Shown: positions 24,466-48,076, counted from the first letter of the stretch. The stretch is 64,000 nucleotides of DNA from an uncultured Synergistaceae bacterium (GCA_964521575.1 CAZFSR010000002.1:28740-92739), one strand, 5' to 3'. Notes: a model not told the origin generated them from the sequence alone. A program made the numbers and translations.

Positions 24466-24488
24466 TAGGGGATTCCCTGATAGACAAA
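24466..24488 (+). repeat. island-boundary motif copy 1: TAGGGGATTCCCTGATAGACAAA
   Basis: It is a perfect 23-bp match to 48054-48076 in the same orientation. A 20/21 match occurs inverted at 39282-39302. Confidence 0.9.
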
Positions 24489-24597
24489 CTCTATTCGTTC
24501 GGGTTTGATAAAGGTTAAGTTTCAAATTTTTCAAATCTAGGCCTTTCCCCTACATTACCCCTTCATCAGGCATTGACAAAATCCATATCCGAGGAGC

Positions 24598-27165
24598 GTG
24601 GGATATTTGAAGACGTCAAGCACCCCTCTCCACACCATACTGGATAACGAAATTTTTAGCATCGTTGACGAGTACCAAATTCCTGAAAGAGAACCACATT
24701 TCGAGCAAATACCCACTGCTCTCCACCCACTAGTAAGAACAGCACTTGAAGGAGCTTTCCCCTCTGGAATCTATTCCCACCAAGCGAAAGGAATTGATTT
24801 ATTACTGGGCAACAAGGACATTTGCCTGGCAACCCCAACTGCTTCCGGAAAAAGCCTTGTTTTCATGTCTTATGCTGCCGATTTATTGCTTCGGACACCT
24901 AAGGCAAAGGTCTTGGCATTATACCCCGCGAAAGCCCTAATTCAGGACCAGCTGAAAAAATGGAAAACGTTCCTAACCCCGTTAAATTTGCCGGTCGGCT
25001 ATATTGACGGAGCGGTAAGATCCCCCGAAAGGGCTGCGATACTTCGCAGGTCAAACGTGGTCCTAATGACGCCTGATGTTGCCCACGCCTGGATTATGAG
25101 CAACCTATCCAACCAAGATGTGGCCTCTTTTCTATCCGCAGTTTCTCTTTTAATCCTTGATGAAGCTCATGTTTACGATGGCGTATTTGGAACAAATATG
25201 GCTTTTTTTCTCCGACGGTTGGAGTGCGTTTCACCATTGAGAAACATTGTGTCGAGCACTGCCACGATAGGAGATCCTGTCGGTTTCATTGAGAAGCTGA
25301 CAGGCAGGATCCCCATACTCATTTCAAAAAACGACGATGGGGCTCCCTCTTCTGCAAAAACGATATTTTTATCACGGTGTTCAGACAGTTCAATAGATAA
25401 TTTTGTCAATTTAATTACATCTCTGCCAAGCCTTAAGCTTGGCCCCTTCATCGCTTTTGCCGATTCAAGGAAGATGGTCGAACATATTGTCGCCATTGCT
25501 AAAAGAAACTGTATTCCTGAAAGAGATCCTCTCCAGAACATTGGAACGACGGAAGATACGTTAATAGATGACCCTCTAGAAGATAAAGATTCTTTTTTCG
25601 AAAGCTTGGGGATATTGCCCTATAGGGCAGGCTATGAGGAAGATGACCGAAATGAAATTCAAAGAGCGCTAGCTGAAGGACGGCTTTCCGGTGTGGTTTC
25701 CACGAGTGCTCTTGAGTTAGGCCTCGATATAGGAGAGATTTCAATAGTCGTGCTTATGGGTGTGCCTCCATCGGTTAAGGCCTTTTGGCAGCGGTTTGGT
25801 CGCGGAGGAAGGAAAGGGAATGGCTATTGCATTTTGCTTGACGACTGCAACGCAATAGAAGCAGACGGTTTATCTTCTTATCTGGACCGCACCCCTGAAC
25901 CTTGCTGGCTCTATCTCGAAAACCGATTTATTCAATATACACATGCCCTCTGCACCGCTTTGGAAACGATTGAATATCCAAACTATAACCAGAAACCATT
26001 AGAGACTCTCCCGGAAGACTTCCTCCACTTTATGAATAACGAAATCCTCCCTAGGGAGACGATACCCAACGATCTGTACCCTTTGAAGCAAAGGGCTGTA
26101 AATGGTCCACATTACGAGTTCCCATTAAGGTCCGGAATTGAAAAGAACCTGTCCATTTCAGAAAATAGTGGGTATTCTATGACGCGGTTGGGGAACGTTT
26201 CGTTTTCCCAGGCTCTTCGAGAAGCCTATCCTGGAGCGATTTATTATTATATGGCATGCCCTTATCGTGTTGTTTTTTTCAATTACAGACTTGGCGAAAT
26301 AAAGGTAAAGAAAGAGAAGCGCTGGACGACCAAGCCAATACTCCAAAACATGGTTTTTCCGAAAATGGATAATGGCGTCCTCGCGCTTCGCAAATCCAAA
26401 AGCGGATTCTTGATAGAAGCAAACCTACAAGTCAGCGAGAGGATAATCGGTTTCACGGAACAGAGAGGTCCCAATTCTGCCTCGCATTTATATGAACAGG
26501 GCAACTTCTACAGCCAGCGTCCAATAACGAGATTTTTTGAAACGACCGGTGTCTGCTGGTTTTTCGATGACAGGAGATTCCAATCAGAACCGTTAGCGAA
26601 TTTAATCTTAAAGGCCTTTTGTTACATTTGCGGGATACAGGAGAGAGACCTGGGTTTCGGAACCTTCCAAGCTCGTTCATGCCAATTTTGGGATCAACCG
26701 ACTCACGGGCTTTGTATTTATGATGCCGTGAACGGAAGCCTTCGTTTAACCAAGCAGCTATTTGAAAAGTTTGAAGAAATCCTTGCAACACTCGACTTTG
26801 GCCACTTTTTGTTGGATGAAGTTGATGATGAGTTGCGCTATGCTGTCAAACTATTTAAGAACGAAATTTCAACAACAGGTATTATGGATGTAAACGATGG
26901 GATAATCCTCACACCTCCCGCTGAGAATGATTGGGTAACCGTGATTTGTCCTGGAGAAAAGGGAATGTACATTGACGGAAATAACGAGGAGGTCAAAGTT
27001 CTCGGATACCGCTTCACACCTAACGGAATGGTTTACCAGTTGGAGCCATCCGGAGATCTTACGAACTGGATAGTTAAGATCGCAAGCGTCGTCCCGCTAT
27101 ATGGGATAACGAGGGTTGAGAAGTACAACCTCAACACCGGGGAAACAGCCCCGGTTACACAATGA
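24598..27165 (+). CDS. SF2 DEAD/DEAH-box helicase with DUF1998-like C-terminal domain (MrfA/DrmB-like architecture)
   Basis: It has motif I ATPTASGKS, motif II LILDEAHVYDG, motif III SSTATIG and motif VI WQRFGRGGRKG. The downstream segment AFCYICGIQERDLGFGTF...GLCIYDAVNGSLRLTKQL resembles DUF1998 but lacks an obvious 4-Cys cluster, and ~130 extra C-terminal aa follow. The start is GTG after the RBS GAGGAG. Confidence 0.8.
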   Translation: MGYLKTSSTPLHTILDNEIFSIVDEYQIPEREPHFEQIPTALHPLVRTALEGAFPSGIYSHQAKGIDLLLGNKDICLATPTASGKSLVFMSYAADLLLRTPKAKVLALYPAKALIQDQLKKWKTFLTPLNLPVGYIDGAVRSPERAAILRRSNVVLMTPDVAHAWIMSNLSNQDVASFLSAVSLLILDEAHVYDGVFGTNMAFFLRRLECVSPLRNIVSSTATIGDPVGFIEKLTGRIPILISKNDDGAPSSAKTIFLSRCSDSSIDNFVNLITSLPSLKLGPFIAFADSRKMVEHIVAIAKRNCIPERDPLQNIGTTEDTLIDDPLEDKDSFFESLGILPYRAGYEEDDRNEIQRALAEGRLSGVVSTSALELGLDIGEISIVVLMGVPPSVKAFWQRFGRGGRKGNGYCILLDDCNAIEADGLSSYLDRTPEPCWLYLENRFIQYTHALCTALETIEYPNYNQKPLETLPEDFLHFMNNEILPRETIPNDLYPLKQRAVNGPHYEFPLRSGIEKNLSISENSGYSMTRLGNVSFSQALREAYPGAIYYYMACPYRVVFFNYRLGEIKVKKEKRWTTKPILQNMVFPKMDNGVLALRKSKSGFLIEANLQVSERIIGFTEQRGPNSASHLYEQGNFYSQRPITRFFETTGVCWFFDDRRFQSEPLANLILKAFCYICGIQERDLGFGTFQARSCQFWDQPTHGLCIYDAVNGSLRLTKQLFEKFEEILATLDFGHFLLDEVDDELRYAVKLFKNEISTTGIMDVNDGIILTPPAENDWVTVICPGEKGMYIDGNNEEVKVLGYRFTPNGMVYQLEPSGDLTNWIVKIASVVPLYGITRVEKYNLNTGETAPVTQ

Positions 27166-27267
27166 GAATACGATTTTAAAAAACTAATGACCGATAAGCC
27201 AATGCAACAAAACGCATTTATGTTGCATTCGCTTCTTTGACGCTATTAGAGCATTAGCAACGATTTA

Positions 27268-27300
27268 CGCCCTGTCGATTCGGACAGGGCGGCCCTTTTT
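27268..27300 (+). terminator. rho-independent terminator after the helicase gene
   Basis: CGCCCTGTC-gattcg-GACAGGGCG is followed by GCCCTTTTT. Confidence 0.6.
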
Positions 27301-27932: not shown

Positions 27933-28035
27933 AATTCTCGGCACAGAACGGCCCCTCCGATACTACTTGTAAATGATAGAAAGATGGCCCGGTTTTAGTA
28001 CCGGGCCATCTATGACAAGAAAAACGGGGCCTTCT

Positions 28036-28064
28036 CGGTTCACCCCCGCCAGTGCGGGGAAAGG
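28036..28064 (-). repeat. solitary type I-E-like CRISPR repeat
   Basis: The plus strand reads CGGTTCACCCCCGCCAGTGCGGGGAAAGG. Its reverse complement fits the I-E consensus (TTCCCCGC-NNNN-GCGGGG-TGAACCG), including the palindromic stem and the terminal GAACCG. No second copy occurs at ~61-bp spacing and no I-E cas genes are in the window. Confidence 0.5.
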
Positions 28065-28144
28065 TGCTGGACTGCTCCCGAAATCTTTCCTATGTATGAT
28101 ATCGAGGTCGTTCTGAGAAAACAACTTTTTTGACTACCAGTTTT

Positions 28145-28320
28145 TGTATTGACCCCCTCCAGAACTGCACATGATATTGTGCAGGAGAAGGGAGAGGGCA
28201 AAGATGACGAAGCAGGAACAAAACGGTGCCAACCAGGACGTGAAACGCTGGACTGCCAAGAGAAAAGCGGCCCATGTCCTGTATGTGTTTAGGAGAACCA
28301 CTCTCCTGCCGCCCTGCACC
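28145..28320 (+). mobile_element. remnant of an IS3-family element (left inverted repeat plus 5' part of orfA), related to the copy at 832-2010
   Basis: TGTATTGACCCCCTCCAGAACTGCACATGATATTGTGCAG is nearly identical to the 2010-end of the full IS. The encoded MTKQEQNGANQDVKRWTAKRKAA then diverges and terminates. The rest of the IS is missing. Confidence 0.7.
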
Positions 28321-28381
28321 CTATACCCCATTCACGGGTACCCCAATTAATCGGCTGCCTCTTCGAAATTCGACAATTTTT

Positions 28382-28417
28382 GCTCTACATCCCTGAAGAG
28401 GATGACCCATTGAAACG
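28382..28417 (+). repeat. degenerate, oppositely oriented copy of the I-C array repeat (orphan crRNA-like repeat)
   Basis: GCTCTACATCCCTGAAGAGGATGACCCATTGAAAC compares with the array repeat in transcribed sense, GCTACATCCCCTCGCAAGAGGGGATGAGGATTGAAAC. About 30 positions align. It keeps a hairpin (CATCC/GGATG) followed by ..ATTGAAAC, but it lies on the strand opposite to the array. Confidence 0.45.
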
Positions 28418-29274
28418 ACCAGAAGAAAAGCTCTTGATTAGCTTCTTGAATTTTAAGGGGACCCATAGTAAGCAAACAACTTTTTGGAGCACCTAAAAAA
28501 TCTCCGCTGTCTATCCTCTAGATCCATTCGATAATTTTGGCAAATTACCCATGTAACTTCTCAAGTGTGGCGAACACGACCTCCAGAACCTTGAGGCTTC
28601 AGACAGTTCATAAGCCAAGCCGTCGGGCTAGCCTTACCAGATCCCCCTCTTCAAGGAACCAATCCTCTACTTCACGAGTTTTTTGCAAGAGGGGAAGCTG
28701 CTCTCGGAACTTCTTTCTTGATCACCCCATCAAGTTCACAGTGAGGGGCGTACGAACTGAACCCCCAGAGTAAACGCAAGGAATCCGTCCATCCAGTTTT
28801 TCCCCTCGCAGGCGAACCCTTTCCCGTCAACCCCACGGGAAAAAAGCCCCCCATCCTTGGCGTTTTTCGTTGTAGCAAACCGACGCAATATCCGGGCTAT
28901 CGGGTATTAACGCGTTTTTGCCAGACAAGTAACCGATAGCCTTTGGAGCCGCATGGCGACCGGGTTTGAAGCGTTTCGAAGGAGGCTAAAAGCCATTTTT
29001 CGTAGCGGCCCTCGAATTGCCGCTTTTCCGGTCGGATTTGGAGCTACCGCGGCCCCGGCCGACGCGAACCTGGCGTTCGAGCTCGGCCATGGCGTCGGGT
29101 GCCACAGGAAGTGGCACAAGAGCCTACATTTCCAGCGGTGAACGGCGATCTCCCCGTTGATTAGAGACATAATGTCGGGTTTCCGGTCATCTTGTCGGCT
29201 TCCCGGATACCGGACTTTTGGTGGAAATGTAATTGCTTTTAACTTGTAGTTTGCGCAACAGGAGCAATCAGGAC

Positions 29275-30770
29275 ATGTCAATCCTCATCCCCTCTTGCGA
29301 GGGGATGTAGCTCCGTGGCTTGCTCGGCACCGTTTCCGCTGGCTCGTTTCAATCCTCATCCCCTCTTGCGAGGGGATGTAGCGAACACCCGCTGGCTGAA
29401 ACTTTCTCGGCAATGGTGGTTTCAATCCTCATCCCCTCTTGCGAGGGGATGTAGCCCGGTCAACGGTCAAAAGGGCCTTTGCCGCAGGGGAGTTTCAATC
29501 CTCATCCCCTCTTGCGAGGGGATGTAGCTCCGAGGAAAACGAAGCAAAGCTCTTTGAACTGTACGGTTTCAATCCTCATCCCCTCTTGCGAGGGGATGTA
29601 GCCCCGAAGGAAAACGGACCGCCGCAGGGGCGATCCTGGTTTCAATCCTCATCCCCTCTTGCGAGGGGATGTAGCCACAGCACTACTCCACCGCTACGTT
29701 CGCGTACCAATGGTTTCAATCCTCATCCCCTCTTGCGAGGGGATGTAGCAACAATGGGGCAGGCCGTTTGTCTGACGTTGGCGGAGTTTCAATCCTCATC
29801 CCCTCTTGCGAGGGGATGTAGCTCCGAGGAAAACGAAGCAAAGCTCTTTGAACTGTACGGTTTCAATCCTCATCCCCTCTTGCGAGGGGATGTAGCCCCG
29901 AAGGAAAACGGACCGCCGCAGGGGCGATCCTGGTTTCAATCCTCATCCCCTCTTGCGAGGGGATGTAGCCACGGCTCAATCTTCATGGGCGGCCTCCAGC
30001 TTGGCGTTTCAATCCTCATCCCCTCTTGCGAGGGGATGTAGCGTACGGGTCGTACAGCCCGACCAGCCCCGTGCGGGGGTTTCAATCCTCATCCCCTCTT
30101 GCGAGGGGATGTAGCCGGAGCGGTCCTGCTTGGCCTGCTGGATGTGCTCGATGTTTCAATCCTCATCCCCTCTTGCGAGGGGATGTAACCCCGACAAATC
30201 GCCTGCCGTATCGAGTCCTGCGGGGTTTCAATCCTCATCCCCTCTTGCGAGGGGATGTAGCGTATGCGACCGTGGCGTTCTGCTTGACCGTGGAGAAGTT
30301 TCAATCCTCATCCCCTCTTGCGAGGGGATGTAGCTCGGGGTTGACCTGACGCGCTTGTCGATGACGTGCACGTTTCAATCCTCATCCCCTCTTGCGAGGG
30401 GATGTAGCGTCGTTGACGGCCCGTCCGCCGACGGCACCCGCGTGGTTTCAATCCTCATCCCCTCTTGCGAGGGGATGTAGCGGGCAGGTGTACCGTTGAA
30501 CCTGCCTCGGACCGAAGGTTTCAATCCTCATCCCCTCTTGCGAGGGGATGTAGCCCGAGCAGTTTGAGGATGTTCGGCACCGTCACGCCGGTTTCAATCC
30601 TCATCCCCTCTTGCGAGGGGATGTAGCCGTCGCCGTCGGTCGAGGCCTTCCCGGCCCCGCCGTTTCAATCCTCATCCCCTCTTGCGAGGGGATGTAGCTG
30701 ATTGATGACGAGGATACAAGTTTGCTATTGAAGGTTTCAATCCTCATCCCCTCTTGCGAGGGGATGTAGC
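29275..30770 (-). CRISPR. CRISPR array with 21 repeats of 37 bp and 20 spacers of 34-37 bp; type I-C associated
   Basis: The plus-strand repeat is GTTTCAATCCTCATCCCCTCTTGCGAGGGGATGTAGC. The minus sense ends in ATTGAAAC, so transcription is co-directional with the cas genes from the leader at 30771-30951. Repeat starts are 29275 (degenerate first 3 nt), 29346, 29419, 29492, 29566, 29639, 29713, 29786, 29860, 29933, 30006, 30079, 30153 (G->A variant), 30225, 30298, 30372, 30445, 30518, 30591, 30662 and 30734. Confidence 0.97.
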
Positions 30771-30951: not shown

Positions 30952-31248
30952 TCAGAGAACCAGAGGTCCTGGTTCCACGACCTTTACAACCTGTCCGAAT
31001 ATTATCGTAGCCGACTCCTCCTTCTTAAGGCGGTAAATCCTGACACTATCGACCTTTGCATCTATGCACCCGGAAATCCTGGATGATATTTCCACGAAAT
31101 CTCTTTCCGAGAGGAAACACTCGAAAACAGACTCCTGAACCCGGTTGCCGTAACCCAGACATATCTGGGCGATCGTTCTGAGCCGTTTGCTGCCTTCCGG
31201 GCTGTCGGAATTCGCAATATCGTAGACGACCAGATACTTCGGAGCCAT
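30952..31248 (-). CDS. cas2: CRISPR-associated endoribonuclease Cas2
   Basis: A 98 aa protein (YLVVYDI......RL..IA..C..YG.RVQ.SVFEC) that sits directly downstream of cas1. Confidence 0.9.
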   Translation of the reverse strand: MAPKYLVVYDIANSDSPEGSKRLRTIAQICLGYGNRVQESVFECFLSERDFVEISSRISGCIDAKVDSVRIYRLKKEESATIIFGQVVKVVEPGPLVL

Positions 31249-31256
31249 TTTTCAAC

Positions 31257-32288
31257 CTACCCTGCGACAAACGGAACATACTCACCGCCGGACCGGATTG
31301 CCCGCGCCAAGAGCCTGGCCTGAACGTGGGGCAGCAAGCCGATGGCGACCCGTTCCTTCAGGAGGGAGTGCTGGATTTCTTCGAACTTCCGCTTTTCATA
31401 TTCCCCCAGGAACTTCTTTCTCCCCGTGTCGCTTAGGAGGACCGAACCCCCTTCGAAAAAGTCGAAATCCCTGGCTCCCATCTGCTTGAGGTTGAGAAGG
31501 CTCAGGATCAGCCGGTCCGCGAAGAAAGGCCGGAATTCCTCCATGAGGTCCATGGCCAGGGAATCCCGCCCGACTCGGGGTGAATGCATGATGCCCACGG
31601 CCGGGTCGAGTCCGGCCGACCAGAGGGCTGCGGCGCAATCGTTCGCCAGGATGGAATAGGTCAGCGAGAGAAGAGCGTTCACGGGATCCCTCGGAGGCCT
31701 TCGGTTCCGACCGGAAAAGAAAAACCGATCCCGCGTCGTGCTTGAAAACCCGAGGGAATAGACGTCGAAATACGCCCTGGCCGCCGTTCCTTCCAGCCCC
31801 ATGATCTCTGAGACGGAGGGTGCCTTCGGGAGAGCCTCGATGGAAACCTTCATCGTCAGAATCGCATTTTCGACCGCTTCCAGTTCGCCCGGCGTCAGTT
31901 GCCGTTCCCTGGACATCCGGCGCAGGTTCAAACCCGCGTTTTTCACCTTTCCGGCAACAAAGGCCCGGGCAAACACCGCCCTCTGTTCAGGATCCTGGGC
32001 GAGGGCATACTGTTTGAGGCGAAGTGCCACGTTGTCGCGGGAAATGCCCTGCATTCGGTAAAGCACACGCCCGCGGGCCGACAGGGCCGTGAACGTGATC
32101 CGGCTTTCCACCAGGCGGGCCGCCAGGTCCGAGGAATACCGCACATCCCCGAAAACGCAGACCGAAGCGAGCCGGCGCAGGGGAACGCTGACCAGGACCG
32201 CTCCTTCGTTGCGGACAAGAAGGGTCTCGTGGTCCAGGGCCAGATAGACCCCCTGAGTTGTGACGAAAAGGGTGTTCAGGAGTTCCAT
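31257..32288 (-). CDS. cas1: CRISPR-associated endonuclease Cas1 (I-C type)
   Basis: MELLNTLFVTTQGVYLALDHETLLV ... NALLS..YS.L ... H......SLA.DLMEEFRP are typical Cas1 motifs. The start at ATG 32288 has the RBS GGAGG. Confidence 0.9.
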   Translation of the reverse strand: MELLNTLFVTTQGVYLALDHETLLVRNEGAVLVSVPLRRLASVCVFGDVRYSSDLAARLVESRITFTALSARGRVLYRMQGISRDNVALRLKQYALAQDPEQRAVFARAFVAGKVKNAGLNLRRMSRERQLTPGELEAVENAILTMKVSIEALPKAPSVSEIMGLEGTAARAYFDVYSLGFSSTTRDRFFFSGRNRRPPRDPVNALLSLTYSILANDCAAALWSAGLDPAVGIMHSPRVGRDSLAMDLMEEFRPFFADRLILSLLNLKQMGARDFDFFEGGSVLLSDTGRKKFLGEYEKRKFEEIQHSLLKERVAIGLLPHVQARLLARAIRSGGEYVPFVAG

Positions 32289-32310
32289 TTTCGTGCCTCC
32301 GCGCCTGAGG

Positions 32311-32940: not shown

Positions 32941-32968
32941 GACCAGCTCGCCCCGGCGCGAAAGGCGC

Positions 32969-33931: not shown

Positions 33932-34022
33932 GGGCGATCAGTCTCCTCTCTGTATTTATCCGGGGGCATTCCCCGGGCCGTTTTAAGATTCGGCGCCGCA
34001 AGTTCGGGAACCGGTTCCAGTC

Positions 34023-36787: not shown

Positions 36788-36912
36788 TGGGCACCTCCTA
36801 ATAAAAAATAAACTCCAATCAGTTCATTTATGTAAATATTTCACTGGCCAAGGTAGGTTGATTTTGACTGAAGGAGTTGGGATCAACTCTCAGGGCAAGT
36901 TAAGGTTACGTA

Positions 36913-40021: not shown

Positions 40022-40045
40022 GATTCCTCCCGAGCCTCCCTAGCC

Positions 40046-40444: not shown

Positions 40445-40450
40445 CCCCGC

Positions 40451-40741: not shown

Positions 40742-40861
40742 GGCCCGTCTGCGGGAAACACTACTCAGGGGAAAATTATTCAGACCTCAGGATGTTTCTT
40801 TATGGCCTGTTCTCGGAATCTTGAGAGCTAAAGCAAACACCGTTTTTTGGGTTGATTTCCA

Positions 40862-42112
40862 TCAGAGAACCGGCGTTTCGTCGTCCTCATCATCCATGAG
40901 TGAGACCTCTTGACTGGACGGGATGAGTTCAAGGAACGGAATAATATTTGACTTCTTTCGAGGACAAACGAACTCCACAGCAGTCGAGTCAGTTTCAGGA
41001 ATGCGGTCGATCCGCCAAGAAATCCCGTCATGGCGTAGCACCATTCCTTCAGGCAATTGGGCAGGCTCTTCATAGGGCTGGGAGGTCAACAGACCTCCAG
41101 GCTGACCCGTCGAGGTCCGGACTCTCTCTGTGAAACAGATTTTGTTGGCGGAATCAAAAGCAAAGCCCCACATGATGTCGCTTGTCGAATCCATTATGAA
41201 CTTCACCATAGCACTTGACGGCTTTTGAGCTGTCCACGAAATGGAGCTTCTCTTCGTAGAAATTGCGGGCAAAAGTTCCTCAGACCATTTATCGAGTTCA
41301 AAAGCAAAAATGGACTCCACACCGTTCATCCTTGCGCTGAGGAGCAGGAGCCCGAGGGTTTCAGGAGAAAGATCGTCAACTTCGATAAATAGCGGGCCGA
41401 CAAGATTGCATGGGTGGAAGACCCTCTCCCCTTGTTCTCCGCTTCCGTTTGATACCGTCATTTCAGAAAGCGGCTCCAGGGCTGCCGACACTTCGGAGAG
41501 CATGGAACCTGCTGTGACAAGGCTGTTCCTTGAAAGAAGCGCTTTGAGCGAGCGGACTGTTTTGTGGGGAACGAAATCCGCCCAATCGGGAAGGGATCCC
41601 ATAGATCTGGAATCGGTTCGGCCAGTGGATTCTTCCGCGATTTCTTCGTAGAGCGCCAAGAGAAGGACTGTCGCGGATTTTTGAGGAGACGTGAGGATGA
41701 ACAACCGATCGAGGCTCTTTGAATCCATCGACAGGAAAGAAGCATATCTGTAGGCTGTGCAGGAGAGCAGATTTCTAAGGATTGCGCGAGCGCTATCCTC
41801 CCAGAAAGGCTCTCGAGCTGAACGCGAGCGCGCTTGTGGGATAAGGGCCTCGGCGAAAACTCTGGAAAGCTGGTCCAGGCTGTTCGCGGGCGCCTGCAGG
41901 ATTTCCCGCACCGGATCAATGTGAACTGCGCCTTCATACTCGGGCCCCCAGTAGATTTCTCCGTAGTGGTAGAGCCCCTTGAGCCCATCGAGGCGCGGAA
42001 CCAACACGAGGGCAGGTTCCCGCATTGTCCTGACCCAAAACAGGCGCTCGGCCACCCAGGCTGCTCGATCTGATTCCCTCCCACCGAGGAAGCCCTCAAT
42101 TTGACCAGGCAT
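40862..42112 (-). CDS. hypothetical protein with distant TraG/VirD4 coupling-protein-like blocks but no intact Walker A
   Basis: ALVLVPRLDGLKG sits where T4CPs have the P-loop. EPFWEDSARAILRNLL resembles the FW..A..LL block. PLFIEVDDL...ARMNGVESIFAFELDKW resembles Walker B plus the RGYGI..Q block. No N-terminal TM helices are present. This is a low-confidence homology. Confidence 0.3.
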   Translation of the reverse strand: MPGQIEGFLGGRESDRAAWVAERLFWVRTMREPALVLVPRLDGLKGLYHYGEIYWGPEYEGAVHIDPVREILQAPANSLDQLSRVFAEALIPQARSRSAREPFWEDSARAILRNLLSCTAYRYASFLSMDSKSLDRLFILTSPQKSATVLLLALYEEIAEESTGRTDSRSMGSLPDWADFVPHKTVRSLKALLSRNSLVTAGSMLSEVSAALEPLSEMTVSNGSGEQGERVFHPCNLVGPLFIEVDDLSPETLGLLLLSARMNGVESIFAFELDKWSEELLPAISTKRSSISWTAQKPSSAMVKFIMDSTSDIMWGFAFDSANKICFTERVRTSTGQPGGLLTSQPYEEPAQLPEGMVLRHDGISWRIDRIPETDSTAVEFVCPRKKSNIIPFLELIPSSQEVSLMDDEDDETPVL

Positions 42113-42461
42113 TAGGGAATCTCCTCTTCTGACATTTTGGCAAGAAGGAGAGGTGGTTCTTATGGGGATCCTGGAGGGTTGCCCAGGAGAGCCAGGAGTG
42201 AAAAGCCACTAAGCTGGAGGGCTCCGAAAATGGGAGCAGTTCGTTCTCTGGGAAAGCATTCCGAGCCACTCGGAATTGCTGGACAAGAGGTTGGGTCCTC
42301 TGATCGACATCACGAATCATTTTACAAAATGGATCAATACAAAAACTGGATATTCCTTCTATAAGAGAGAGATGTCCATTTCCTCTTTTCGTAGAATCCT
42401 CATCGAAAAATAGATACATTTCTTTGATTTCTTCTATTCTTGATTTTGTGTATATCGACAT
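42096..42461 (-). CDS. hypothetical protein
   Basis: A 121 aa ORF that overlaps the next gene by 17 nt. I do not recognise a family. Confidence 0.35.
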   Translation of the reverse strand: MSIYTKSRIEEIKEMYLFFDEDSTKRGNGHLSLIEGISSFCIDPFCKMIRDVDQRTQPLVQQFRVARNAFPENELLPFSEPSSLVAFHSWLSWATLQDPHKNHLSFLPKCQKRRFPNAWSN

Positions 42462-42795
42462 GCAAGCCCCCTTCTTTTTCAGTTGTGCCCCGGTTCAGCA
42501 CGCCACCAGGAAGGGGTGGGGGGTTAACCCCACCCCCGTGTTGGGCGGTACTGGGGGATCCGCATAGGGGAAAGGAGTGGATCTTTGAAAGGTGATCGAA
42601 AACAAAAGCACGGAACGCCCCCCTAACTGGTGGCATTCCGTTTACTTTATTTTACCCATCTGCTGACGATAACTATAAATGCCCTTCAAGCAATCGCCCT
42701 TTCTTTGAATAATATTATACTCTGATTATCGACATTTTTCAATACTGGTCTTGCTCATAAACGCCACTTTTTATAGCTACCTCCTCTCTAAACGG

Positions 42796-43683
42796 TTAGA
42801 TCCCAGCACCTTTTGAGAGGCCTGGGATTTCGGCTGCTACAGCATATTGTAAGGACGCTTCCCGTCCCCACACGTCCCGGTTTAGTGGTGGTCCTCGAGG
42901 TGGATATGTTGGGAAAAACAATAGAATGAACAGGGACAATGACAGTTCTAATGTGGCTAGATCGAGTCTTTCCATGGGTTTGAGCCTCTTTTGAAAGGGA
43001 TTTGAGGATCTCCTGACGGGAAAAGCAGCCCTCGGTACGGGGATAGCCGCAAAATGCGGTTCAGGACTGAATCCCAGGGCTTGGCGAATCGAAAATGTCA
43101 CATGGTTATAGACGCCCCGTAGCCCCTCAAAGGTTTGCCTTCCTTTCAGCAGATCTCTGAGGGTGGAGATTCCGAGGCTAGTCCGGATCACTCGCGGAGA
43201 ACGCAGCCTGTATTCGACCCGTACATGCCTGTCTGGAACTAGGCGCCTTTGTGTGGCAATCGTCTCGGAGAGGATTTCTTTGTCGAGGAGTTCTCGCACC
43301 TTGTCATAGACACAGATTTCCCTGCAACCGTTCGAATAGTAGATTGTGGTACTCCCCTTGCCCTGATACCCTCTGGGTTTCCTCAGGTGGGGAAGACGGA
43401 TTTTCATCAAGGCTGGCACGATTTTCGAATACCCCGAGGAAACCGACAGGTCAGAAAACAGATCTATGCGGCTTATCGTTGCCCCCATCAGATCAAGGTA
43501 AATTCCTCCCCTGGCCATTCTTTTTCCCAGCCTGGAAACTGCCCGTTGGATTTTGGAACGGGATAACAATGGTTTTGTGTTGCAGCGCCCTGAATCACCG
43601 TAAAGCAGGATTTGCGGGGAGAAAGAAACGGTGAGGTACCCATAAGGATTCCGCACTGCACAGTAAAAGGGGGTATGGATCAA
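42796..43683 (-). CDS. rolling-circle replication initiator-like protein (Rep_trans family-like)
   Basis: The ordered motifs ISRIDLFSD, VYDKVRE and HVRVEYRL resemble the RxD / YDK / RxE blocks of Rep_trans initiators. Confidence 0.5.
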   Translation of the reverse strand: MIHTPFYCAVRNPYGYLTVSFSPQILLYGDSGRCNTKPLLSRSKIQRAVSRLGKRMARGGIYLDLMGATISRIDLFSDLSVSSGYSKIVPALMKIRLPHLRKPRGYQGKGSTTIYYSNGCREICVYDKVRELLDKEILSETIATQRRLVPDRHVRVEYRLRSPRVIRTSLGISTLRDLLKGRQTFEGLRGVYNHVTFSIRQALGFSPEPHFAAIPVPRAAFPVRRSSNPFQKRLKPMERLDLATLELSLSLFILLFFPTYPPRGPPLNRDVWGREASLQYAVAAEIPGLSKGAGI

Positions 43684-43801
43684 CTCCCTCCCATGGCCTA
43701 TCGGCCGCCAGGGAAGAGTTTTTCCCTGCCTGGGCCTCCATCGGGACGTACAGATATGTATTGTGTCGATGCCAATTTTTGGATGACCTGGCTTCAGGAG
43801 C

Positions 43802-43835
43802 GTACCCTCCCCGCAACGGCGTGTGGGGAGGGTAC
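43802..43835. repeat. perfect 11-bp-stem hairpin (candidate oriT or double-strand origin)
   Basis: GTACCCTCCCC-gcaacggcgtgt-GGGGAGGGTAC lies in the intergenic region between the relaxase module and the Rep-like gene. Confidence 0.5.
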
Positions 43836-43894
43836 AAATTCAGTTTGGCGGAAACAGGATCACACAAAATTTCCGGTCAGACTATTCACGAATC

Positions 43895-44212
43895 CTAACC
43901 TCCGATGACTCTTCCTTCTGGACCGCTGGGCCCGCCGTCAAGTCTTACCCCAAGAATCGCTAGAATTTCGATTAGTTGTTCTTCGACGTCGGCCGCGAGA
44001 ATCTGAGCTTCCCCCTCGTCGGGTTCAGGGCCAGCTTGAATCGCGATCCTTACCCGCCTGGGAGGAATATTGTCGTCGAGACGAGTCAATCGCAAGCGGG
44101 CCTCCGCCCGTGACATGGTTCCGTCCTTCGTTCTCGAGGAATTTATTGAATAGCTTGAGAGTTGAAAAACGAAGGCACACTTCCGGCTACACGGAACATC
44201 ACCTTTTGTCAT
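43895..44212 (-). CDS. hypothetical protein (relaxase-coupled, start overlaps the relaxase stop)
   Basis: A 105 aa ORF joined to the upstream Mob gene by an ATGA overlap. I do not recognise a family. Confidence 0.4.
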   Translation of the reverse strand: MTKGDVPCSRKCAFVFQLSSYSINSSRTKDGTMSRAEARLRLTRLDDNIPPRRVRIAIQAGPEPDEGEAQILAADVEEQLIEILAILGVRLDGGPSGPEGRVIGG

Positions 44213-44982
44213 TTTTTATCTTCTCCTTCCCCGGCTTCCTTAGATTCAATGGAATCAATCCTGCCCAAGGTTTCTAGAATTCCTGATCGCCTAAGGTCCC
44301 GTTGAAGGTTGCGAAAGACGATCCTTTCTGCTTCCCTGAGCACGCATTCTTCTTTGTGGGCCTGTGTGACACTCCGGTTTGCATCTCCGGTCAATTTCTT
44401 TGGAATCCCGCGACGAAACCCCAAATGGGAGAAAATTTCCTCGGCCAGGTCCTGCAGCTTGGAGAAAAATCCTCTATCCAGAGATCGAATCACCGTTTTG
44501 TGCGACTCATAGTCATAGTTTTGCAACAGGCAATGGAAATGGACTCTTTTCTCATCCATATGCATAGCGAGATAAATGAAAGGCATGTTTGTTTCTGACG
44601 CCAGCCTCAGGAAAAGCTCCTCCGCCGCTTCATACAAAGTGTTAAGCGGGACCTGGTCGACCTCTCTCGAAAATACGAGAACCGCCCTCGCGAAAGGCCG
44701 AGTGTTGCCGGGCAGCCTTTTTCCATGAAATTCGCGGTAATCCATTCTCTGCTCCTCTTTCACCTTCTCGATCTCCCAGAACAGGCGCCGTATTCCCTCT
44801 ACGGCTCGCCTCCCCTGAATCCGCCGATTCTTGAAACAACCCCACCTGTCGTTCACGAGAACGTCTGAGGGGCCTTTTAGGTAAGGGGGGCATTCCTCGC
44901 GGGTATCGTGACGAAATTGCCTTATTCCCACGCTCGCCGAGACCGCTTCGATTCGAGCGCATACGAATCTATCTCCGGACAT
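44209..44982 (-). CDS. MobV-family (Mob/Pre) relaxase-like protein
   Basis: FRHDTRE resembles motif I (HxxR). AMHMDEKRVHFHCLL matches the HxDE..(P)HxH metal-binding motif of Mob_Pre relaxases. The start is ATG 44982 after GGAGGTG. Confidence 0.55.
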   Translation of the reverse strand: MSGDRFVCARIEAVSASVGIRQFRHDTREECPPYLKGPSDVLVNDRWGCFKNRRIQGRRAVEGIRRLFWEIEKVKEEQRMDYREFHGKRLPGNTRPFARAVLVFSREVDQVPLNTLYEAAEELFLRLASETNMPFIYLAMHMDEKRVHFHCLLQNYDYESHKTVIRSLDRGFFSKLQDLAEEIFSHLGFRRGIPKKLTGDANRSVTQAHKEECVLREAERIVFRNLQRDLRRSGILETLGRIDSIESKEAGEGEDKK

Positions 44983-45149
44983 GACTTCACCTCCATAAAG
45001 CGACAAAGGTATTCCGTTCGGTAAAGCACAACAGCGTAGTATGTCTATGCAGACACAGGTTACGGGGAAACGAATCCATGTGTTTTTTCAAAAAAAATGA
45101 CGCACCCTTGTTGGGTGCGTCTGGGCTTTCTCTATATATTTTGCCCCTC

Positions 45150-46286
45150 TCAAGCGGCGATCGAATTGCCATTCCTCAGCCGGTTTAGAGGACTGTATTT
45201 GTCATGGTCTGCGATTATCGGAGCGCCTTTGTAGTTCGCGTAGCGTTGCGCCATTGCGGGAGTTTTGTGCCCCAGAAAGGCCTGTAGCCGATTCTGGTTA
45301 TACTTCGTGTCCTCGTAATAGGCCATTGCGGCGTAGTGCCTTATCCCGTAAGGCCTTATGCTCTCGGTCATGTCCTTGCAGTAATCGTGAAGCCGTCGGT
45401 ACCAGGTATTGCCCGACATGGGCTTCCCTTTAGCCGTGCAGAAAAGCGGTGCTCCAGGAGGAATTCTCTCTGCTTTCCTCTTGGCAAGCCAGCTCTTCAA
45501 GGTTTTGACCATCTCCCTTGAAAGTGGAAGGGCCCTCGAGCATCGGTTCTTTGTGTCATCGGCGCTTAGGTGGACACAAGGATTTTTCGCCGCAAAATCC
45601 AGGTCCGCTGGCACCACTTTGAGGGCTTCTCCCGGCCTGATGCCCGTGTCGATTTGGAACTGGAGAAGAACGAGATCTCGAAAGCCTTCGAAAGCGTCCC
45701 TATTCTTTTCCTTTTGCATTCTTTCAAGGAGTTTGTCGATCTGTTCATCCTTGATGTTGACGATTCGACCCTCATCGTACCTCTTGGATCTTCCAGCAAT
45801 CGGGTTTCGCTTCAAGACTGCCAGATGATCCTTATATTTTTCCTCTTGCTCCGCCCCCTCCGGCACGGTAAGAAAATTAAAAAAAGCCCGCAGGTAAACG
45901 AGTCTAAGGTTGAACGTAGCCGGAGCGATATTCTGACTGAAGTGCGCATCGAGACATTCCTTGAGGCATTTTGGGTTTACTGCCTGAGGGTAGCGCCGAA
46001 AAAAAAGTTCCACGGTTTTCTCATAGTCGGACTGGGTCCTTGACGAAATGGGCTTATTCCAGGGAACACTCGTCTTCCACTGGATGAACGCGCTGAGCCA
46101 TATCCGCCAGACTTGAGTCTGTCCGTTTCCCGCGTTCGCTATGAGATTCGGTGTTGCACTGGACAGCCTCTTAGCTCTTATCGAGCTAACGTTAGTCGGT
46201 GCCTTCCTCTTTGCCCTGAGAAGAGAATTGGCTTTCCCAGTTGAGGTCTTCAGTTGCCCGCCAACTGCCGACGACGCCTTCTTCAT
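45150..46286 (-). CDS. tyrosine-type site-specific integrase
   Basis: It has GIRPGEALKV, IRPYGIRHYAAMAYY and LGHKTPAMAQRYANY. The start is ATG 46286, 9 nt after GGAGGG. Confidence 0.85.
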   Translation of the reverse strand: MKKASSAVGGQLKTSTGKANSLLRAKRKAPTNVSSIRAKRLSSATPNLIANAGNGQTQVWRIWLSAFIQWKTSVPWNKPISSRTQSDYEKTVELFFRRYPQAVNPKCLKECLDAHFSQNIAPATFNLRLVYLRAFFNFLTVPEGAEQEEKYKDHLAVLKRNPIAGRSKRYDEGRIVNIKDEQIDKLLERMQKEKNRDAFEGFRDLVLLQFQIDTGIRPGEALKVVPADLDFAAKNPCVHLSADDTKNRCSRALPLSREMVKTLKSWLAKRKAERIPPGAPLFCTAKGKPMSGNTWYRRLHDYCKDMTESIRPYGIRHYAAMAYYEDTKYNQNRLQAFLGHKTPAMAQRYANYKGAPIIADHDKYSPLNRLRNGNSIAA

Positions 46287-46428
46287 GCGGAACATCCCTC
46301 CAAAAATTTTCCCGCACAGTTACTCTCGTCCGGGGGAGAAGCACTGTCCATTGCTCCTCTTTTTTTCCATGAATGTCCCTCCCTTCCAAAATAGGATTTA
46401 CTTCCGAATACAAAGAACCCCGTAAGGC

Positions 46429-46923
46429 TTAAAGGCCATTCACCGAAAACGGTTTCGCTTCACTTTCGAAATCATCGACCCGAAGACCCTTTTTTTCGAG
46501 ATAGCAGTCAAAAAGCAGGGCCGCCATCACCCCGGTCAGCATCCCCATGTTGATCAACGAATAAAAACTGACCGTCATTTCTTTTGAAAATTGTTTATAC
46601 CGGGTAATAAGCTCGTAGTTCGTTCCCCGCCTCAGGAGGTCTTTCAGCCGATCCGGAGAGATGAAATCGGGGTTCGCCTGAGCCTGCGTCAGAAGCGCAA
46701 TCACCGTCTGGAGCAGGTAAAAGCTCCCTCCGCGCAGCGAAATCACCCCCTCTTTCTCCCATGAGTTGATCGTCAGGGCCGTCACCCCGAGGAGGATGGC
46801 GAACTCCTGCTGCGTCATCTCGAGGATCCCACGGACTTTTCGCACATCCTCGGCGCTCATAAGGGCGTCCTGGCTCACATCGCAATGGATTGATTCTTCT
46901 GCCTCTTTTTTCCTCTTGACCAT
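46429..46923 (-). CDS. XRE-family HTH protein with a hydrophobic C-terminal segment
   Basis: It has the HTH LEMTQQEFAILLGVTALTINSWEKEG and a C-terminal hydrophobic stretch LINMGMLTGVMAALLF. Confidence 0.65.
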   Translation of the reverse strand: MVKRKKEAEESIHCDVSQDALMSAEDVRKVRGILEMTQQEFAILLGVTALTINSWEKEGVISLRGGSFYLLQTVIALLTQAQANPDFISPDRLKDLLRRGTNYELITRYKQFSKEMTVSFYSLINMGMLTGVMAALLFDCYLEKKGLRVDDFESEAKPFSVNGL

Positions 46924-46984
46924 TTAAACCCACCCCTTATCATGTATCGTTAGAACGTATGTTACTATATGTCTTATTATATTG

Positions 46985-47884
46985 TCAAGTATGTTTTATA
47001 TTTGCCTTTCCCGCCTTCCTGACCCTGTGCCGCTCCGGAACCAGGGCCTGCACGGGGGAAGCCGTGCTGTGGACCTTTCGCAGGTCCTGGTCCGTCAGCG
47101 CCACATACCGTCTCGTCATCGCCATGTCCTCGTGCCCCAGGGTCCGCTGCAGGGCGAATGCGTTCCCCCCGTGCCGGAGGTAGTGCAACGCGAACGAATG
47201 CCTGAGGTCGTAGGGTCTAATTTTCATCCCCAGCCGCTGGCCGTACCCGGCCAGCCTTCGGGACCATTCGTCCTTGAGGGGCAGCCCTGAGGCTGAACAG
47301 AAAAGGGGAACCGATTCGCCCCATTGCGGGTGCCGAACGCGTATTGTCTCAGCGATAGCCTGAACGGTGACGTTGGAAAGCGGAAGCGTCCTGGAGACGC
47401 GCGTCTTGGCGCTTTCGGCCGGGATGGTGACCTGGCAGTATTTCAGGTCGACCTGGCGGGTTTGGAGTGAAAGCGCCTCCCCAGGGCGAATCCCCGTATC
47501 GAGGATCAGCAGGATCAGGGCGTAGTCCCGCAGCCCCGCAAATGTGGTCCGGTCCGGGAGGGAAAGGAGCTTCGTCAGGCTGTCGGCAGGGACGTTGACG
47601 ATCCTGGGCGGGGTTTTCCGCCGGTGCAGGCGGCCCGTGGGATCCGCTCCCAGGTATCCCTCGTCGACGCACCAACGGAAAAAGCATCGGAGATAAACCA
47701 GCCTCAGGTTGTAGGTATAGGGCGAAACCTTTTCCGAAAGGTATTCCAGGACGCACGATCGGAGAGCGGGGTTGGCAAGTCCGGAGGGATACTGGTGAAA
47801 GAATTTACTAATGTGTTTTTGGTAATCTACCAGCGTTCGGGAACTCAGCCCCTCCCCCTTTTTGTAGAGGAGGAAGTGTTCCAT
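46985..47884 (-). CDS. tyrosine-type site-specific integrase (tRNA-adjacent)
   Basis: The N-terminal SAM-like domain (LSSRTLVDYQKHISKFF) is followed by GIRPGEALSL, IRPYDLRHSFALHYL and LGHEDMAMTRRYV. It is a paralog of the pseudogene at 1-831. Confidence 0.85.
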   Translation of the reverse strand: MEHFLLYKKGEGLSSRTLVDYQKHISKFFHQYPSGLANPALRSCVLEYLSEKVSPYTYNLRLVYLRCFFRWCVDEGYLGADPTGRLHRRKTPPRIVNVPADSLTKLLSLPDRTTFAGLRDYALILLILDTGIRPGEALSLQTRQVDLKYCQVTIPAESAKTRVSRTLPLSNVTVQAIAETIRVRHPQWGESVPLFCSASGLPLKDEWSRRLAGYGQRLGMKIRPYDLRHSFALHYLRHGGNAFALQRTLGHEDMAMTRRYVALTDQDLRKVHSTASPVQALVPERHRVRKAGKANIKHT

Positions 47885-48053
47885 GGCGACAGTCCAGCTG
47901 ACCGAAAAACCTGATGGCTGCGGGAACGGGAGGACGGACAAGCGAAAAACCCCCTTACATTTCCGCAAAGGGGTTTTTGAGGGGTTTTTCCAGTCCGCTG
48001 GGGAGGGCCAATTTCAACCCCAGCGGATTCGCCTTCGAAAACGGGTTAATAAA

Positions 48054-48076
48054 TAGGGGATTCCCTGATAGACAAA
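48054..48076 (+). repeat. island-boundary motif copy 3: TAGGGGATTCCCTGATAGACAAA
   Basis: It is a perfect match to 24466-24488 and lies 30 bp beyond the 3' end of tRNA-Leu. Confidence 0.9.

What the first reader, a model, noticed from the sequence alone, without database searches (positions are those of the whole stretch)
24466..48076. Complete type I-C CRISPR-Cas locus lies inside a ~23.6 kb composite island bounded by a perfect 23-bp direct repeat beside tRNA-Leu(CAA)
TAGGGGATTCCCTGATAGACAAA occurs at 24466-24488 and again in the same orientation at 48054-48076. The second copy is 30 bp past the 3' end of tRNA-Leu(CAA) and ~170 bp from the start of a tyrosine integrase (46985-47884). The DNA between the two copies is visibly AT-richer than the flanking metabolic operons, and all of it is accessory. 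It holds a helicase plus mini-recombinase, an IS3 remnant, orphan repeats, cas3-cas5-cas8c-cas7-cas4-cas1-cas2 with 21 repeats, a Rep/Mob integrative element and two integrases. Integrase plus tRNA plus direct repeats is the classical genomic-island signature. This suggests the whole CRISPR-Cas system is, or was, mobile cargo. It is unusual that the repeat does not overlap the tRNA gene itself.
Basis: partly seen in the sequence, partly recalled or inferred. Interest (0 to 1): 0.75.

Follow-up and report, generated by a model that had tools for sequence, protein, structure and literature searches.

The report
CRISPR-Cas in a tRNA-Leu hot spot

Summary
The 23-mer is real. It is exact at 24466-24488 and 48054-48076, with 0 such matches in 100 shuffles. 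tRNA-Leu(CAA), the integrases and a complete type I-C locus with 21 repeats are also there.

A contig 99.3% identical to the right flank (L037) has the tRNA but no island. Identity ends at the tRNA 3' end (48106). Copy B and its spacer therefore belong to the inserted DNA. They are a diverged copy of the native tRNA-Leu terminator, and they travel with the adjacent integrase (L014, L021).

A related locus (L015) keeps a 5'-truncated tRNA-Leu as its far end. That is the classical tRNA-overlapping att. The window holds no such fragment.

Copy A is part of a 33-nt unit. In other Synergistales contigs this unit lies 150 nt past the stop codon of a second XerC/D-like integrase family. A-left resembles that site's outer arm.

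No relative joins the xdh operon to tRNA-Leu. GC content is mosaic, and the cas operon matches the host.

Verdict: this is an ordinary, strain-variable, mosaic accessory region at a tRNA hot spot. The repeat is best read as an att-type motif family, not as the attL/attR pair of a 23.6-kb unit.

The parts
16..837 (+). Pseudogene of a second-family (L017/L039-type) XerC/D-like integrase; it has one in-frame stop and its C-terminus is cut by IS3
   Evidence: tblastn gives 50% identity to the L039 integrase over residues 16-286; Pfam Phage_integrase
850..2170 (-). IS3-family copy (rve transposase remnant)
   Evidence: Pfam rve/rve_3; homology to the intact IS in L015; inverted repeat with 28145-28301
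24310..24454 (+). Sequence left of copy A that is homologous to the outer (P-arm) side of att-like sites in L039 and L016-18
   Evidence: nhmmer E=1.2e-8 for 24310-24486; alignment A4
24455..24488 (+). Copy A: a 33-nt unit TGTGTCCAATC+TAGGGGATTCCCTGATAGACAA (24455-24487), containing the 23-mer (24466-24488)
   Evidence: Logan contigs L004/L005 end at 24483, so a shared stretch starts at 24454
24607..27165 (+). DEAD/DEAH helicase (Lhr/BrxHI/SngC-like), low GC
   Evidence: Pfam DEAD and Helicase_C; PADLOC BrxHI/SngC hits; gene call in L002
27363..27932 (+). 189-aa tyrosine recombinase with a catalytic domain only (invertase-sized)
   Evidence: Pfam Phage_integrase; NCBIfam tyrosine-type DNA invertase, sub-threshold; phrog_216
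27982..28492 (+). 5' fragment of the same IS3-family element
   Evidence: blastn to L015 6152-6519, next to an rve transposase
29275..30770 (-). CRISPR array: 21 repeats of 37 nt and 20 spacers (2 duplicated); the leader is on the cas2 side
30952..39198 (-). Type I-C cas operon: cas2 30952-31248, cas1 31257-32390, cas4 32311-32940, cas7 32969-33931, cas8c 34023-36071, cas5d 36074-36787, cas3 36913-39198
   Evidence: Pfam; cas3 start from the gene call in L036
39282..39305 (-). Copy C: an inverted copy AAATAGGGGTTTCCCTGATAGACA, 84 nt upstream of the cas3 start, between the terminator of the neighbouring element and cas3
   Evidence: I4, I16
39533..46923 (-). Body of the tRNA-Leu-targeting integrative element: small ORFs, DUF6011, orf416, Rep-like 42796-43683, relaxase-like 44209-45006, integrase 45150-46286, HTH protein 46429-46923
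   Evidence: Pfam, PHROG and NCBIfam; homologues of int, HTH and Rep lie at the same tRNA in L021-L029
46985..47941 (-). XerC/D-like integrase (int327 type) next to the tRNA
   Evidence: Pfam; NCBIfam; homologues with 59-90% identity lie next to tRNA-Leu in L014, L021 and L022-29
47994..48029 (.). Conserved hairpin between the integrase and copy B; pairing is kept by compensatory changes in relatives
48054..48076 (+). Copy B: part of the element-borne, diverged copy of the tRNA-Leu terminator
   Evidence: alignment A3 against the native terminators of L037, L015 and L039; RNA folds
48106..48192 (-). tRNA-Leu(CAA); its 3' end is the right limit of the strain-specific DNA
   Evidence: ARAGORN and Rfam; L037 comparison

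Best explanation
Window 23.9-48.1 kb is a mosaic accessory region in the tRNA-Leu(CAA) integration hot spot of an uncultured Synergistales bacterium. It was assembled by several events and is not one island bounded by the 23-mer.

Module 1 (39.3-48.1 kb) is an integrative element carrying two tyrosine integrases, an HTH protein and Rep-like and relaxase-like genes. I infer that it entered by recombination inside the tRNA gene, with an identity block running from the anticodon stem to the 3' end. It brought its own tRNA 3' end and terminator copy. Copy B is part of that copy.

Module 3 is a low-GC helicase plus mini-recombinase, with IS3 debris, preceded by copy A.

The 21-nt core TAGGGGWTTCCCTGATAGACA is most likely the conserved core of an att-type site. 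The site would be used by a second family of XerC/D-like integrases (L017/L039 type) and is related by descent to the tRNA-Leu terminator arm. The full unit is 33 nt. It lies about 150 nt beyond the integrase stop codon, the position attP has relative to int in phage lambda.

Copy A is a recombinant junction: outer arm, then core, then unrelated DNA. L015 shows the reciprocal type. B and C carry only 21-24 nt of the unit.

Shown: the copies, their contexts, the homology break points and the strain polymorphism. Inferred: that the motif is where strands are exchanged, and which integrase acts on it.
For: Right border:
- L037 is 99.3% identical to window 62855-48048. Identity is perfect through the tRNA, about 70% over the next 58 nt, and absent beyond.
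- L037, L039 and L015 share a strong native terminator hairpin (-21 to -22.6 kcal/mol, z about -4). The window version is split and weak.
- The B version co-occurs with int327-type integrases in L014 and L021.
- L015 8083-8247 is a tRNA-Leu truncated at position 29 plus the native terminator, 95.8% identical to L037.

Hot spot: the same right-flank synteny with other cargo is seen in L022-29 and L039.

Motif:
- It is absent from 185,579 species-representative genomes except for one match at chance level (L001, 68% GC, no integrase). It is absent from viral contigs.
- The metagenome scan gave 7 loci and L039 was found separately. All lie at junctions: next to integrases (L014, L015-19, L039) or exactly at a GC break of 54-60% against 29-37% (L020).
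- The core is invariant in L014-L020 (one mismatch in L039), while the flanks are 55-90% identical or unrelated.
- Homology breaks at the right edge of the unit in window A and at the left edge in L015.
- Logan contigs from two samples end at 24483. By the rule verified on L002, this means that window 24454 onward has two left contexts in those samples.
- 6 of the 7 TAGGGGA heptamers in the window lie in the island, clustered around A and C.
Against: - No recombination product was observed directly: no circular junction, and no empty site sharing both flanks.
- In L039 and L016-18 the site looks like an intact attP inside chromosomal contigs, which a simple integrated element would not show.
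- B and C have only two thirds of the 33-nt unit.
- C is inverted, which tandem accretion at one att site does not predict.
- Integrases 59% identical to int327 (L022-29) have no motif.
- The distal tRNA fragment expected for module 1 is not in the window.
- The core is also 84-245 nt upstream of, and co-oriented with, the first gene of three defence modules (helicase, cas3, and SIR2 in L020). A regulatory role would also explain this.
Confidence: 0.5

Rival explanations
1. One reading: copies A and B are attL and attR of one composite 23.6-kb island. It integrated at a chromosomal motif 30 bp downstream of tRNA-Leu and can excise as a unit, carrying CRISPR-Cas.
For: - A perfect 23-bp identity in direct orientation, with sharp edges, encloses all the accessory genes.
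- A tRNA and an integrase lie next to B.
- GC drops near A.
- The motif is not a dispersed repeat.
- A graph break occurs at A in two samples.
Against: - In the same-species contig L037, identity stops at the tRNA 3' end. The native sequence at B's position is a different terminator, 5 mismatches in 21 nt.
- B co-occurs with the integrase in other hosts.
- A-left is itself related to mobile-element DNA.
- A third, inverted copy exists.
- The related locus L015 ends in a truncated tRNA.
- xdh is not next to tRNA-Leu in any relative.
- The contigs through A (L002, L003) and the one through C (L036) show no alternative junction.
Confidence: 0.1
2. The motif is a cis-regulatory module: an operator with a partial palindrome AGGGGA/TTCCCT that overlaps a -35-like TAGACA. 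It would be bound by an element-encoded regulator, for example the HTH protein at 46429-46923. This would place the integrase, the cas operon and the helicase under common control.
For: - The copies lie 119, 84 and 113 nt upstream of the helicase, cas3 and int327 starts, and 245 nt upstream of a SIR2 gene in L020.
- A, C and the L020 copy are co-oriented with the downstream gene.
- B scores as TAGACA-17-GAAAAT in the promoter scan.
- Extra TAGGGGA half-sites cluster near A and C.
- An HTH protein is conserved between the two integrases.
Against: - 21 of 21 nt are invariant across unrelated contexts, far more than operators usually need.
- The promoter scan does not call A or C, and the helicase has its own better TTGACA box downstream of A.
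- At B and at the A-type sites the motif points away from, or antisense to, the nearest gene.
- The sharp homology and GC break points at the motif edges need recombination anyway.
Confidence: 0.2
3. Copies A and C, as 21-nt inverted repeats, bound a 14.8-kb segment (helicase, mini-recombinase, CRISPR-Cas). The internal Fim-like 189-aa recombinase inverts or moves this segment.
For: - The inverted repeat 24466-24486 / 39282-39302 is 95% complementary (I16).
- An invertase-sized tyrosine recombinase lies inside.
- Both outward-facing ends sit about 100 nt upstream of inward-reading operons.
Against: - Contigs L002, L003 and L036 cross A or C in one orientation only, with no graph break.
- The break seen at A in other samples starts 12 nt left of the repeat, which does not match an inversion junction.
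- The invertase match is below the curated cut-off.
- No homologous cassette was found elsewhere.
Confidence: 0.05
4. The repeat is a chance or a generic dispersed genomic repeat with no link to mobility.
For: One match occurs in an unrelated high-GC Eubacteriales MAG with no integrase nearby.
Against: - 0 of 100 shuffles give any match.
- About 2 chance hits are expected in 596 Gb, and 1 was found.
- The other loci that carry it are junctions beside integrases, beside tRNA-Leu, or at a GC break.
Confidence: 0.02

Closest known systems
tRNA-integrated genomic islands and integrative mobilizable elements, as catalogued by Islander (PMC4383910)
   Same: A tyrosine integrase lies next to a tRNA gene. 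The tRNA is intact because the insert supplies its 3' end. The region is present in some strains and absent in others. Cargo varies at one hot spot. A related locus (L015) shows the displaced tRNA fragment.
   Different: The window holds no displaced tRNA fragment, so the far end is undefined. The region is a mosaic of at least three modules with different GC. The 23-bp repeat is not the tRNA-derived att.
CRISPR-Cas systems carried on genomic islands, e.g. Vibrio VPI-6 and tRNA-Met-adjacent islands (PMC6360697)
   Same: A complete CRISPR-Cas locus sits inside integrase-bearing, strain-variable DNA next to a tRNA, together with other defence-like genes.
   Different: Excision of the island with its CRISPR-Cas was shown for VPI-6. 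Here no excision product or matching att pair was found, and the cas operon has host-like GC.
Lambda-type attP-int organisation (my own knowledge of phage lambda: the int 3' end is adjacent to the P' arm)
   Same: In L016-18 and L039 the 33-nt unit lies about 150 nt past the integrase stop codon with conserved DNA on both sides. Junctions of both recombinant types are seen (window A, L015).
   Different: These integrases are XerC/D-sized (about 320 aa) and have no obvious arm-binding domain. Arm-type sites and the crossover point are untested. The attP-like form is found inside chromosomal contigs.
pdif/Xer modules of Acinetobacter plasmids (my own knowledge)
   Same: A short conserved site linked to XerC/D-like recombinases bounds discrete accessory modules. 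Neighbouring copies alternate in orientation (A+, C-, B+).
   Different: No 11-6-11 Xer site architecture is evident in the motif. Only three copies exist. L039 shows direct orientation. The setting is chromosomal and beside a tRNA.

Membership tests
Type I-C CRISPR-Cas | cas3, cas5d, cas8c (Csd1), cas7, cas4, cas1 and cas2 in one operon, with no cas6 | tested here: met
   Pfam hits above the curated cut-offs for all seven, in the order cas3-5-8c-7-4-1-2 on the minus strand; no further cas ORF between them
Type I-C CRISPR-Cas | An adjacent CRISPR array whose repeat ends in ATTGAAAC in the direction of transcription | tested here: met
   21 repeats at 29275-30770. The reverse complement ends in GGATTGAAAC. 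The repeat is 37 nt rather than the usual 32 nt.
tRNA-integrated genomic island (Islander definition) | A tyrosine integrase gene adjacent to an intact tRNA gene | tested here: met
   Integrase 46985-47941 and tRNA-Leu 48106-48192
tRNA-integrated genomic island (Islander definition) | A displaced tRNA fragment (direct repeat of the tRNA 3' part) marking the far end | tested here: not met
   The 64-kb window holds no second copy of tRNA positions 29-87. Such a fragment exists in the related locus L015. It may lie outside the window or have been lost.
tRNA-integrated genomic island (Islander definition) | Presence/absence polymorphism among close relatives, with the break point at the tRNA | tested here: met
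   L037 is 99.3% identical up to the tRNA 3' end and unrelated beyond
   The right limit is 48105/48106, 29 nt outside B. At least 155 nt left of A is element-like. Homology to relatives ends at 23851.
   Not found in L037, L039, L030 or L035. The only relative above 90% identity covers the right flank alone, so this is not exhaustive.
Lambda-like att site of the L017/L039-type integrase | The core site lies next to the integrase 3' end, with conserved arms on both sides | tested here: met
   L016, L017, L018 and L039
Lambda-like att site of the L017/L039-type integrase | Strand exchange occurs within the core and is catalysed by that integrase | not testable with these tools
   This needs recombination assays or junction reads.
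Invertible DNA segment (Fim-type) | Both orientations are present in a population | tested here: not met
   L002, L003 and L036 cross A or C in a single orientation without a graph break
Integron | An IntI-type integrase divergent from attI, followed by promoterless cassettes that each end in attC | tested here: not met
   The integrases read toward or away from the motif in other arrangements. Integron-integrase models score far below their cut-offs. No attC-like repeats follow the modules.
Xer/pdif module | A 28-bp site with two 11-bp inverted arms around a 6-bp spacer | tested here: inconclusive
   By inspection of the aligned copies, only TGTCT...AGACA outer symmetry and an inner AGGGGA/TTCCCT symmetry are present, with unequal spacing.

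The most novel reading that the evidence does not exclude
The 21-nt motif is the exchange site of a cassette system for defence genes in Synergistales. In three unrelated modules it marks the 5' border, with the same polarity: a helicase plus mini-recombinase, a whole type I-C CRISPR-Cas locus, and a SIR2 gene in L020. It is also tied to XerC/D-like integrases. A complete CRISPR-Cas locus could then be captured and shuffled as a cassette by site-specific recombination, in a way akin to integrons or pdif modules but with a different site and a different recombinase.
Probability: 0.1. Interest if true: 0.7.

Novelty: new member of a known kind. Interest (0 to 1): 0.3.

Why it matters
CRISPR-Cas loci on integrase-bearing islands beside tRNA genes are already documented, so the main message is not new. 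The value of this case is cautionary. A perfect direct repeat next to a tRNA and an integrase looked like a textbook att pair. A single same-species comparison showed that the real border is the tRNA itself and that the repeat lies inside the foreign DNA. The recurring 21-nt motif is a possible handle on how accessory modules are swapped at this hot spot in a poorly studied phylum. It sits at module borders and beside two integrase families. That idea remains to be tested.

Tried and rejected
- Scanned 185,579 representative genomes for the motif. The one hit (L001) has 68% GC and no integrase, and I treat it as chance. The window's own genome is not in that set, so in-genome copy number could not be counted.
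- The viral contig scan gave nothing.
- Looked for an empty site through DUF2848 homologues. The best relatives are only 71-72% identical and not syntenic beyond the gene.
- Contig ends inside the tRNA (48135, 48157, 48164) at first looked like island polymorphism. They are explained by k-mers shared with other tRNA-Leu genes in the metagenomes, so I rejected them as evidence.
- Searched for the L037 NosD-like gene in the window's genome to find the far junction. Only a 95% Logan cluster exists and there is no NCBI copy.
- Searched the window for a truncated tRNA, for P or P' arms, and for the AATCCGCTGGGG arm-like 12-mer. Nothing turned up beyond the known sites.
- Considered a transposon reading with TGT...ACA terminal inverted repeats for 39282-48074. 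Rejected, because at A-type sites the conserved integrase lies on the side that would be 'outside'.
- Considered a rolling-circle origin for the Rep-like protein. The motif does not co-occur with Rep homologues (L022-28 have Rep but no motif).
- Considered an IS3-mediated inversion linking the integrase pseudogene at 16-837 to copy A. No supporting junction sequence was found.
- The small ORF across the motif in L039 (68 aa) is unlikely to explain the conservation. The motif is invariant at the nucleotide level while neighbouring codons vary freely.
- The plasmid database has no match to the element or to its Rep-like protein.

Full report
OBSERVATION
The 23-mer TAGGGGATTCCCTGATAGACAAA is present exactly at 24466-24488 and 48054-48076 on the plus strand. 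None of 100 dinucleotide-preserving shuffles gave any match at up to 3 mismatches. The same search found a third copy on the minus strand at 39280-39302. Its 21-nt core TAGGGGWTTCCCTGATAGACA has one mismatch. It shares 24 nt at 96% with copy B and 21 nt at 95% with copy A (pairs I4 and I16).

tRNA-Leu(CAA) lies at 48106-48192 on the minus strand. Pfam confirms the following:
- the xanthine-dehydrogenase operon on the left;
- a DEAD/DEAH helicase (24607-27165);
- a 189-aa tyrosine recombinase (27363-27932);
- cas2-cas1-cas4-cas7-cas8c-cas5d-cas3 (30952-39198, minus strand);
- two further integrases (45150-46286 and 46985-47941).

The array has 21 repeats of 37 nt at 29275-30770, with regular spacing. 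The 'orphan repeats' are therefore its trailer end. The Rep and relaxase calls rest only on sub-threshold hits.

GC content is mosaic: 44-50% at 24-29 kb, 54-63% over the array and cas operon, 48-54% at 39-47 kb, and 57-65% in the flanks.

ORIGIN OF THE WINDOW
Exact protein look-ups place the window on a 245,851-nt NCBI contig. Proteins at least 90% identical to its MgsA are annotated as Synergistales. Logan contigs from SRR12489245 and SRR12489247 are 100% identical and collinear with the window across copies A and C.

IS THE MOTIF DISPERSED?
An exact scan of one genome per species (185,579 species) gave a single hit. It lies in a 68% GC Eubacteriales MAG with no integrase nearby. This is at the chance level of about 2. 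Viral contigs gave none. The metagenome scan gave 7 loci. The motif is therefore rare and is not a generic repeat. Its in-genome copy number could not be counted, because the window's genome is not in the scanned set.

RIGHT BORDER
The decisive comparison is L037. This is a 115-kb JGI contig that is 99.3% identical to window 62855-48048. It has the same tRNA-Leu but no integrase. After the tRNA come a strong terminator hairpin and then NosD-like, lactamase_B, AraC and MFS genes, none of which is in the window.

In alignment A3 the two sequences are identical through the tRNA 3' end (48106). They are only about 70% alike across the next 58 nt, which hold the spacer and copy B, and unrelated beyond.

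The native sequence at B's position is TAAGGGAATCCCTGATTGTTA. This is the 3' arm and loop of a 12-bp terminator stem (-22.6 kcal/mol, z -4.1). L039 and L015 carry the same native version. The window version folds weakly (-11.6 kcal/mol, z -0.9).

The B version, identical over spacer and motif, is found only beside int327-type integrases (70% and 90% identical) in L014 and L021. Copy B therefore came in with the integrase-bearing element. The strain-specific DNA starts at the tRNA itself.

L015 shows how such elements end. It carries a tRNA-Leu truncated at position 29 (the anticodon stem) followed by the native terminator, 95.8% identical to L037. Just upstream, the 12-mer AATCCGCTGGGG occurs once exactly and once as a two-mismatch variant; the window has it in the hairpin between B and the integrase. 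This is the classical arrangement in which a regenerated tRNA and a displaced fragment mark the ends of an island (PMC4383910). The window has no such fragment, so the far end of this element is unknown.

HOT SPOT
Relatives whose integrase is 59% identical (L022-29) keep the same right-flank synteny: HAD, MgsA, EamA, GntR, Cob_adeno_trans, DUF2703, 4HBT, tRNA-Leu. They also keep the same core of two integrases, an HTH protein and a Rep-like gene, but with different cargo. The cargo is type I RM in L028, methylase plus helicase in L027, and IS elements in L022/L026. They have no motif.

L039 is a Synergistales MAG about 86% identical in the flank. It has yet another arrangement. The island proteins were recorded on 3 contigs, against 11 for the flanking MgsA.

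LEFT BORDER AND COPY A
Relatives at 71-72% protein identity (L030, L035) lose homology at the DUF2848 start (23851). They have no tRNA or integrase next to xdh. GC falls from 23.8 kb.

Copy A belongs to a longer unit, TGTGTCCAATC plus the motif plus A (24455-24487). The same 33-nt unit, written TGTNTCCAAAC-core, occurs in L015-L018 and L039. There it lies about 150 nt beyond the stop codon of a second XerC/D-like integrase family, which is 43% identical to int327.

In L016, L017, L018 and L039 both sides of the unit are conserved, 250-900 nt on the outer side. This looks like an attP with the integrase 3' end adjacent, as in phage lambda.

Window A shares the outer side (nhmmer E=1.2e-8 for 24310-24486) and the unit, but nothing to the right. 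L015 shares the unit and the integrase side, but nothing beyond 18 nt to the left. These are the two reciprocal junction types expected from site-specific recombination.

Independent support comes from Logan contigs from two samples, which stop at 24483. A contig entering a repeat ends 29 nt after the repeat starts; I verified this rule on L002 at the IS repeat. By this rule the sequence from 24454 onward has two left contexts in those samples.

In L020 the inverted-type copy sits exactly at a GC break. On one side is a MacB/ABC operon at 54-60% GC. On the other is a 29-37% GC segment with a SIR2 defence-like gene. In window A, window C, L020 and the A-type sites, the TAGGGG end faces outward and the GACA end faces the accessory DNA.

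INTERPRETATION
The interval is a mosaic at a tRNA hot spot. It contains:
- an integrative element that entered through the tRNA (39.3-48.1 kb);
- a type I-C locus with host-like GC;
- a low-GC helicase plus mini-recombinase module with IS3 debris.

The motif is best read as the core of an att-type site family, related by descent to the tRNA-Leu terminator. Copies sit at the three module borders. A and B are identical over 23 nt because both belong to this family, not because they are the two ends of one excisable unit. I put this at about 0.5.

What weakens it:
- no recombination product was seen;
- the attP-like form sits in chromosomal contigs;
- B and C carry only two thirds of the unit;
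- C is inverted.

RIVALS
- Regulatory reading (0.2). It is favoured by position (84-245 nt upstream of helicase, cas3, int327 and SIR2), a partial palindrome, clustered TAGGGGA half-sites and a conserved HTH protein. It does not explain the nucleotide invariance or the break points, and the promoter scan calls only B.
- An invertible or mobile A-C cassette driven by the Fim-sized recombinase (0.05). Contigs cross A and C in one orientation only.
- Chance (0.02).

COMPARISON WITH KNOWN SYSTEMS AND NOVELTY
CRISPR-Cas on integrase-bearing islands is documented, including islands next to tRNA genes and one shown to excise with its CRISPR-Cas (PMC6360697). The type I-C membership features are all met. 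The tRNA-island features are met except for the displaced fragment. The integron, Fim-type and Xer/pdif definitions are not met or are inconclusive.

This is a new member of a known kind, with modest interest. The more novel possibility is that the motif is an exchange site for defence cassettes that can carry a whole CRISPR-Cas locus. The evidence does not exclude it, and I put it at about 0.1.

Noticed in passing
window 16-837 (+) and 850-2170 (-): A further XerC/D-like integrase of the L017/L039 type sits at the very start of the window. It is a pseudogene with one in-frame stop, and an IS3-family copy cuts its 3' end. A 5' fragment of the same IS lies at 27982-28492 in inverted orientation.
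   Followed up: partly
window 29275-30770: The CRISPR repeat is 37 nt, longer than the 32 nt usual for type I-C. A block of two spacers is duplicated (29489-29681 and 29783-29975, 99%).
   Followed up: partly
window 47994-48029; L014, L021, L022: A hairpin between copy B and the integrase keeps its pairing through compensatory changes in relatives. Its 12-mer AATCCGCTGGGG also occurs, with a near-copy, beside the truncated tRNA in L015, so these may be arm-type integrase binding sites.
   Followed up: partly
window 56743-56807 (-): A fluoride riboswitch (crcB motif) scores above the Rfam gathering threshold.
   Followed up: no
L037 14900-15130; L015 8330-8350; L018 12-167: A short unit AAAGATTAATGA(G/A) recurs several times in the non-coding DNA downstream of tRNA-Leu in several Synergistales contigs.
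   Followed up: no
L039 15552-15758 (-): A 68-aa ORF reads through the motif, which would encode KLGDFLID. Similar reading frames exist in L015-18, but the nucleotide-level invariance of the motif argues against coding constraint as its cause.
   Followed up: partly
window 2172-2566 and about 56.9 kb: Two formate/nitrite-transporter-like genes in the window are paralogues, 67% identical at the nucleotide level.
   Followed up: no
window 24466/24552 and 39234/39302/39541: 6 of the 7 TAGGGGA heptamers in the window lie inside the accessory region, in small clusters around copies A and C. A 12-nt partial motif ATAGGGGATTCC occurs at 39540.
   Followed up: partly
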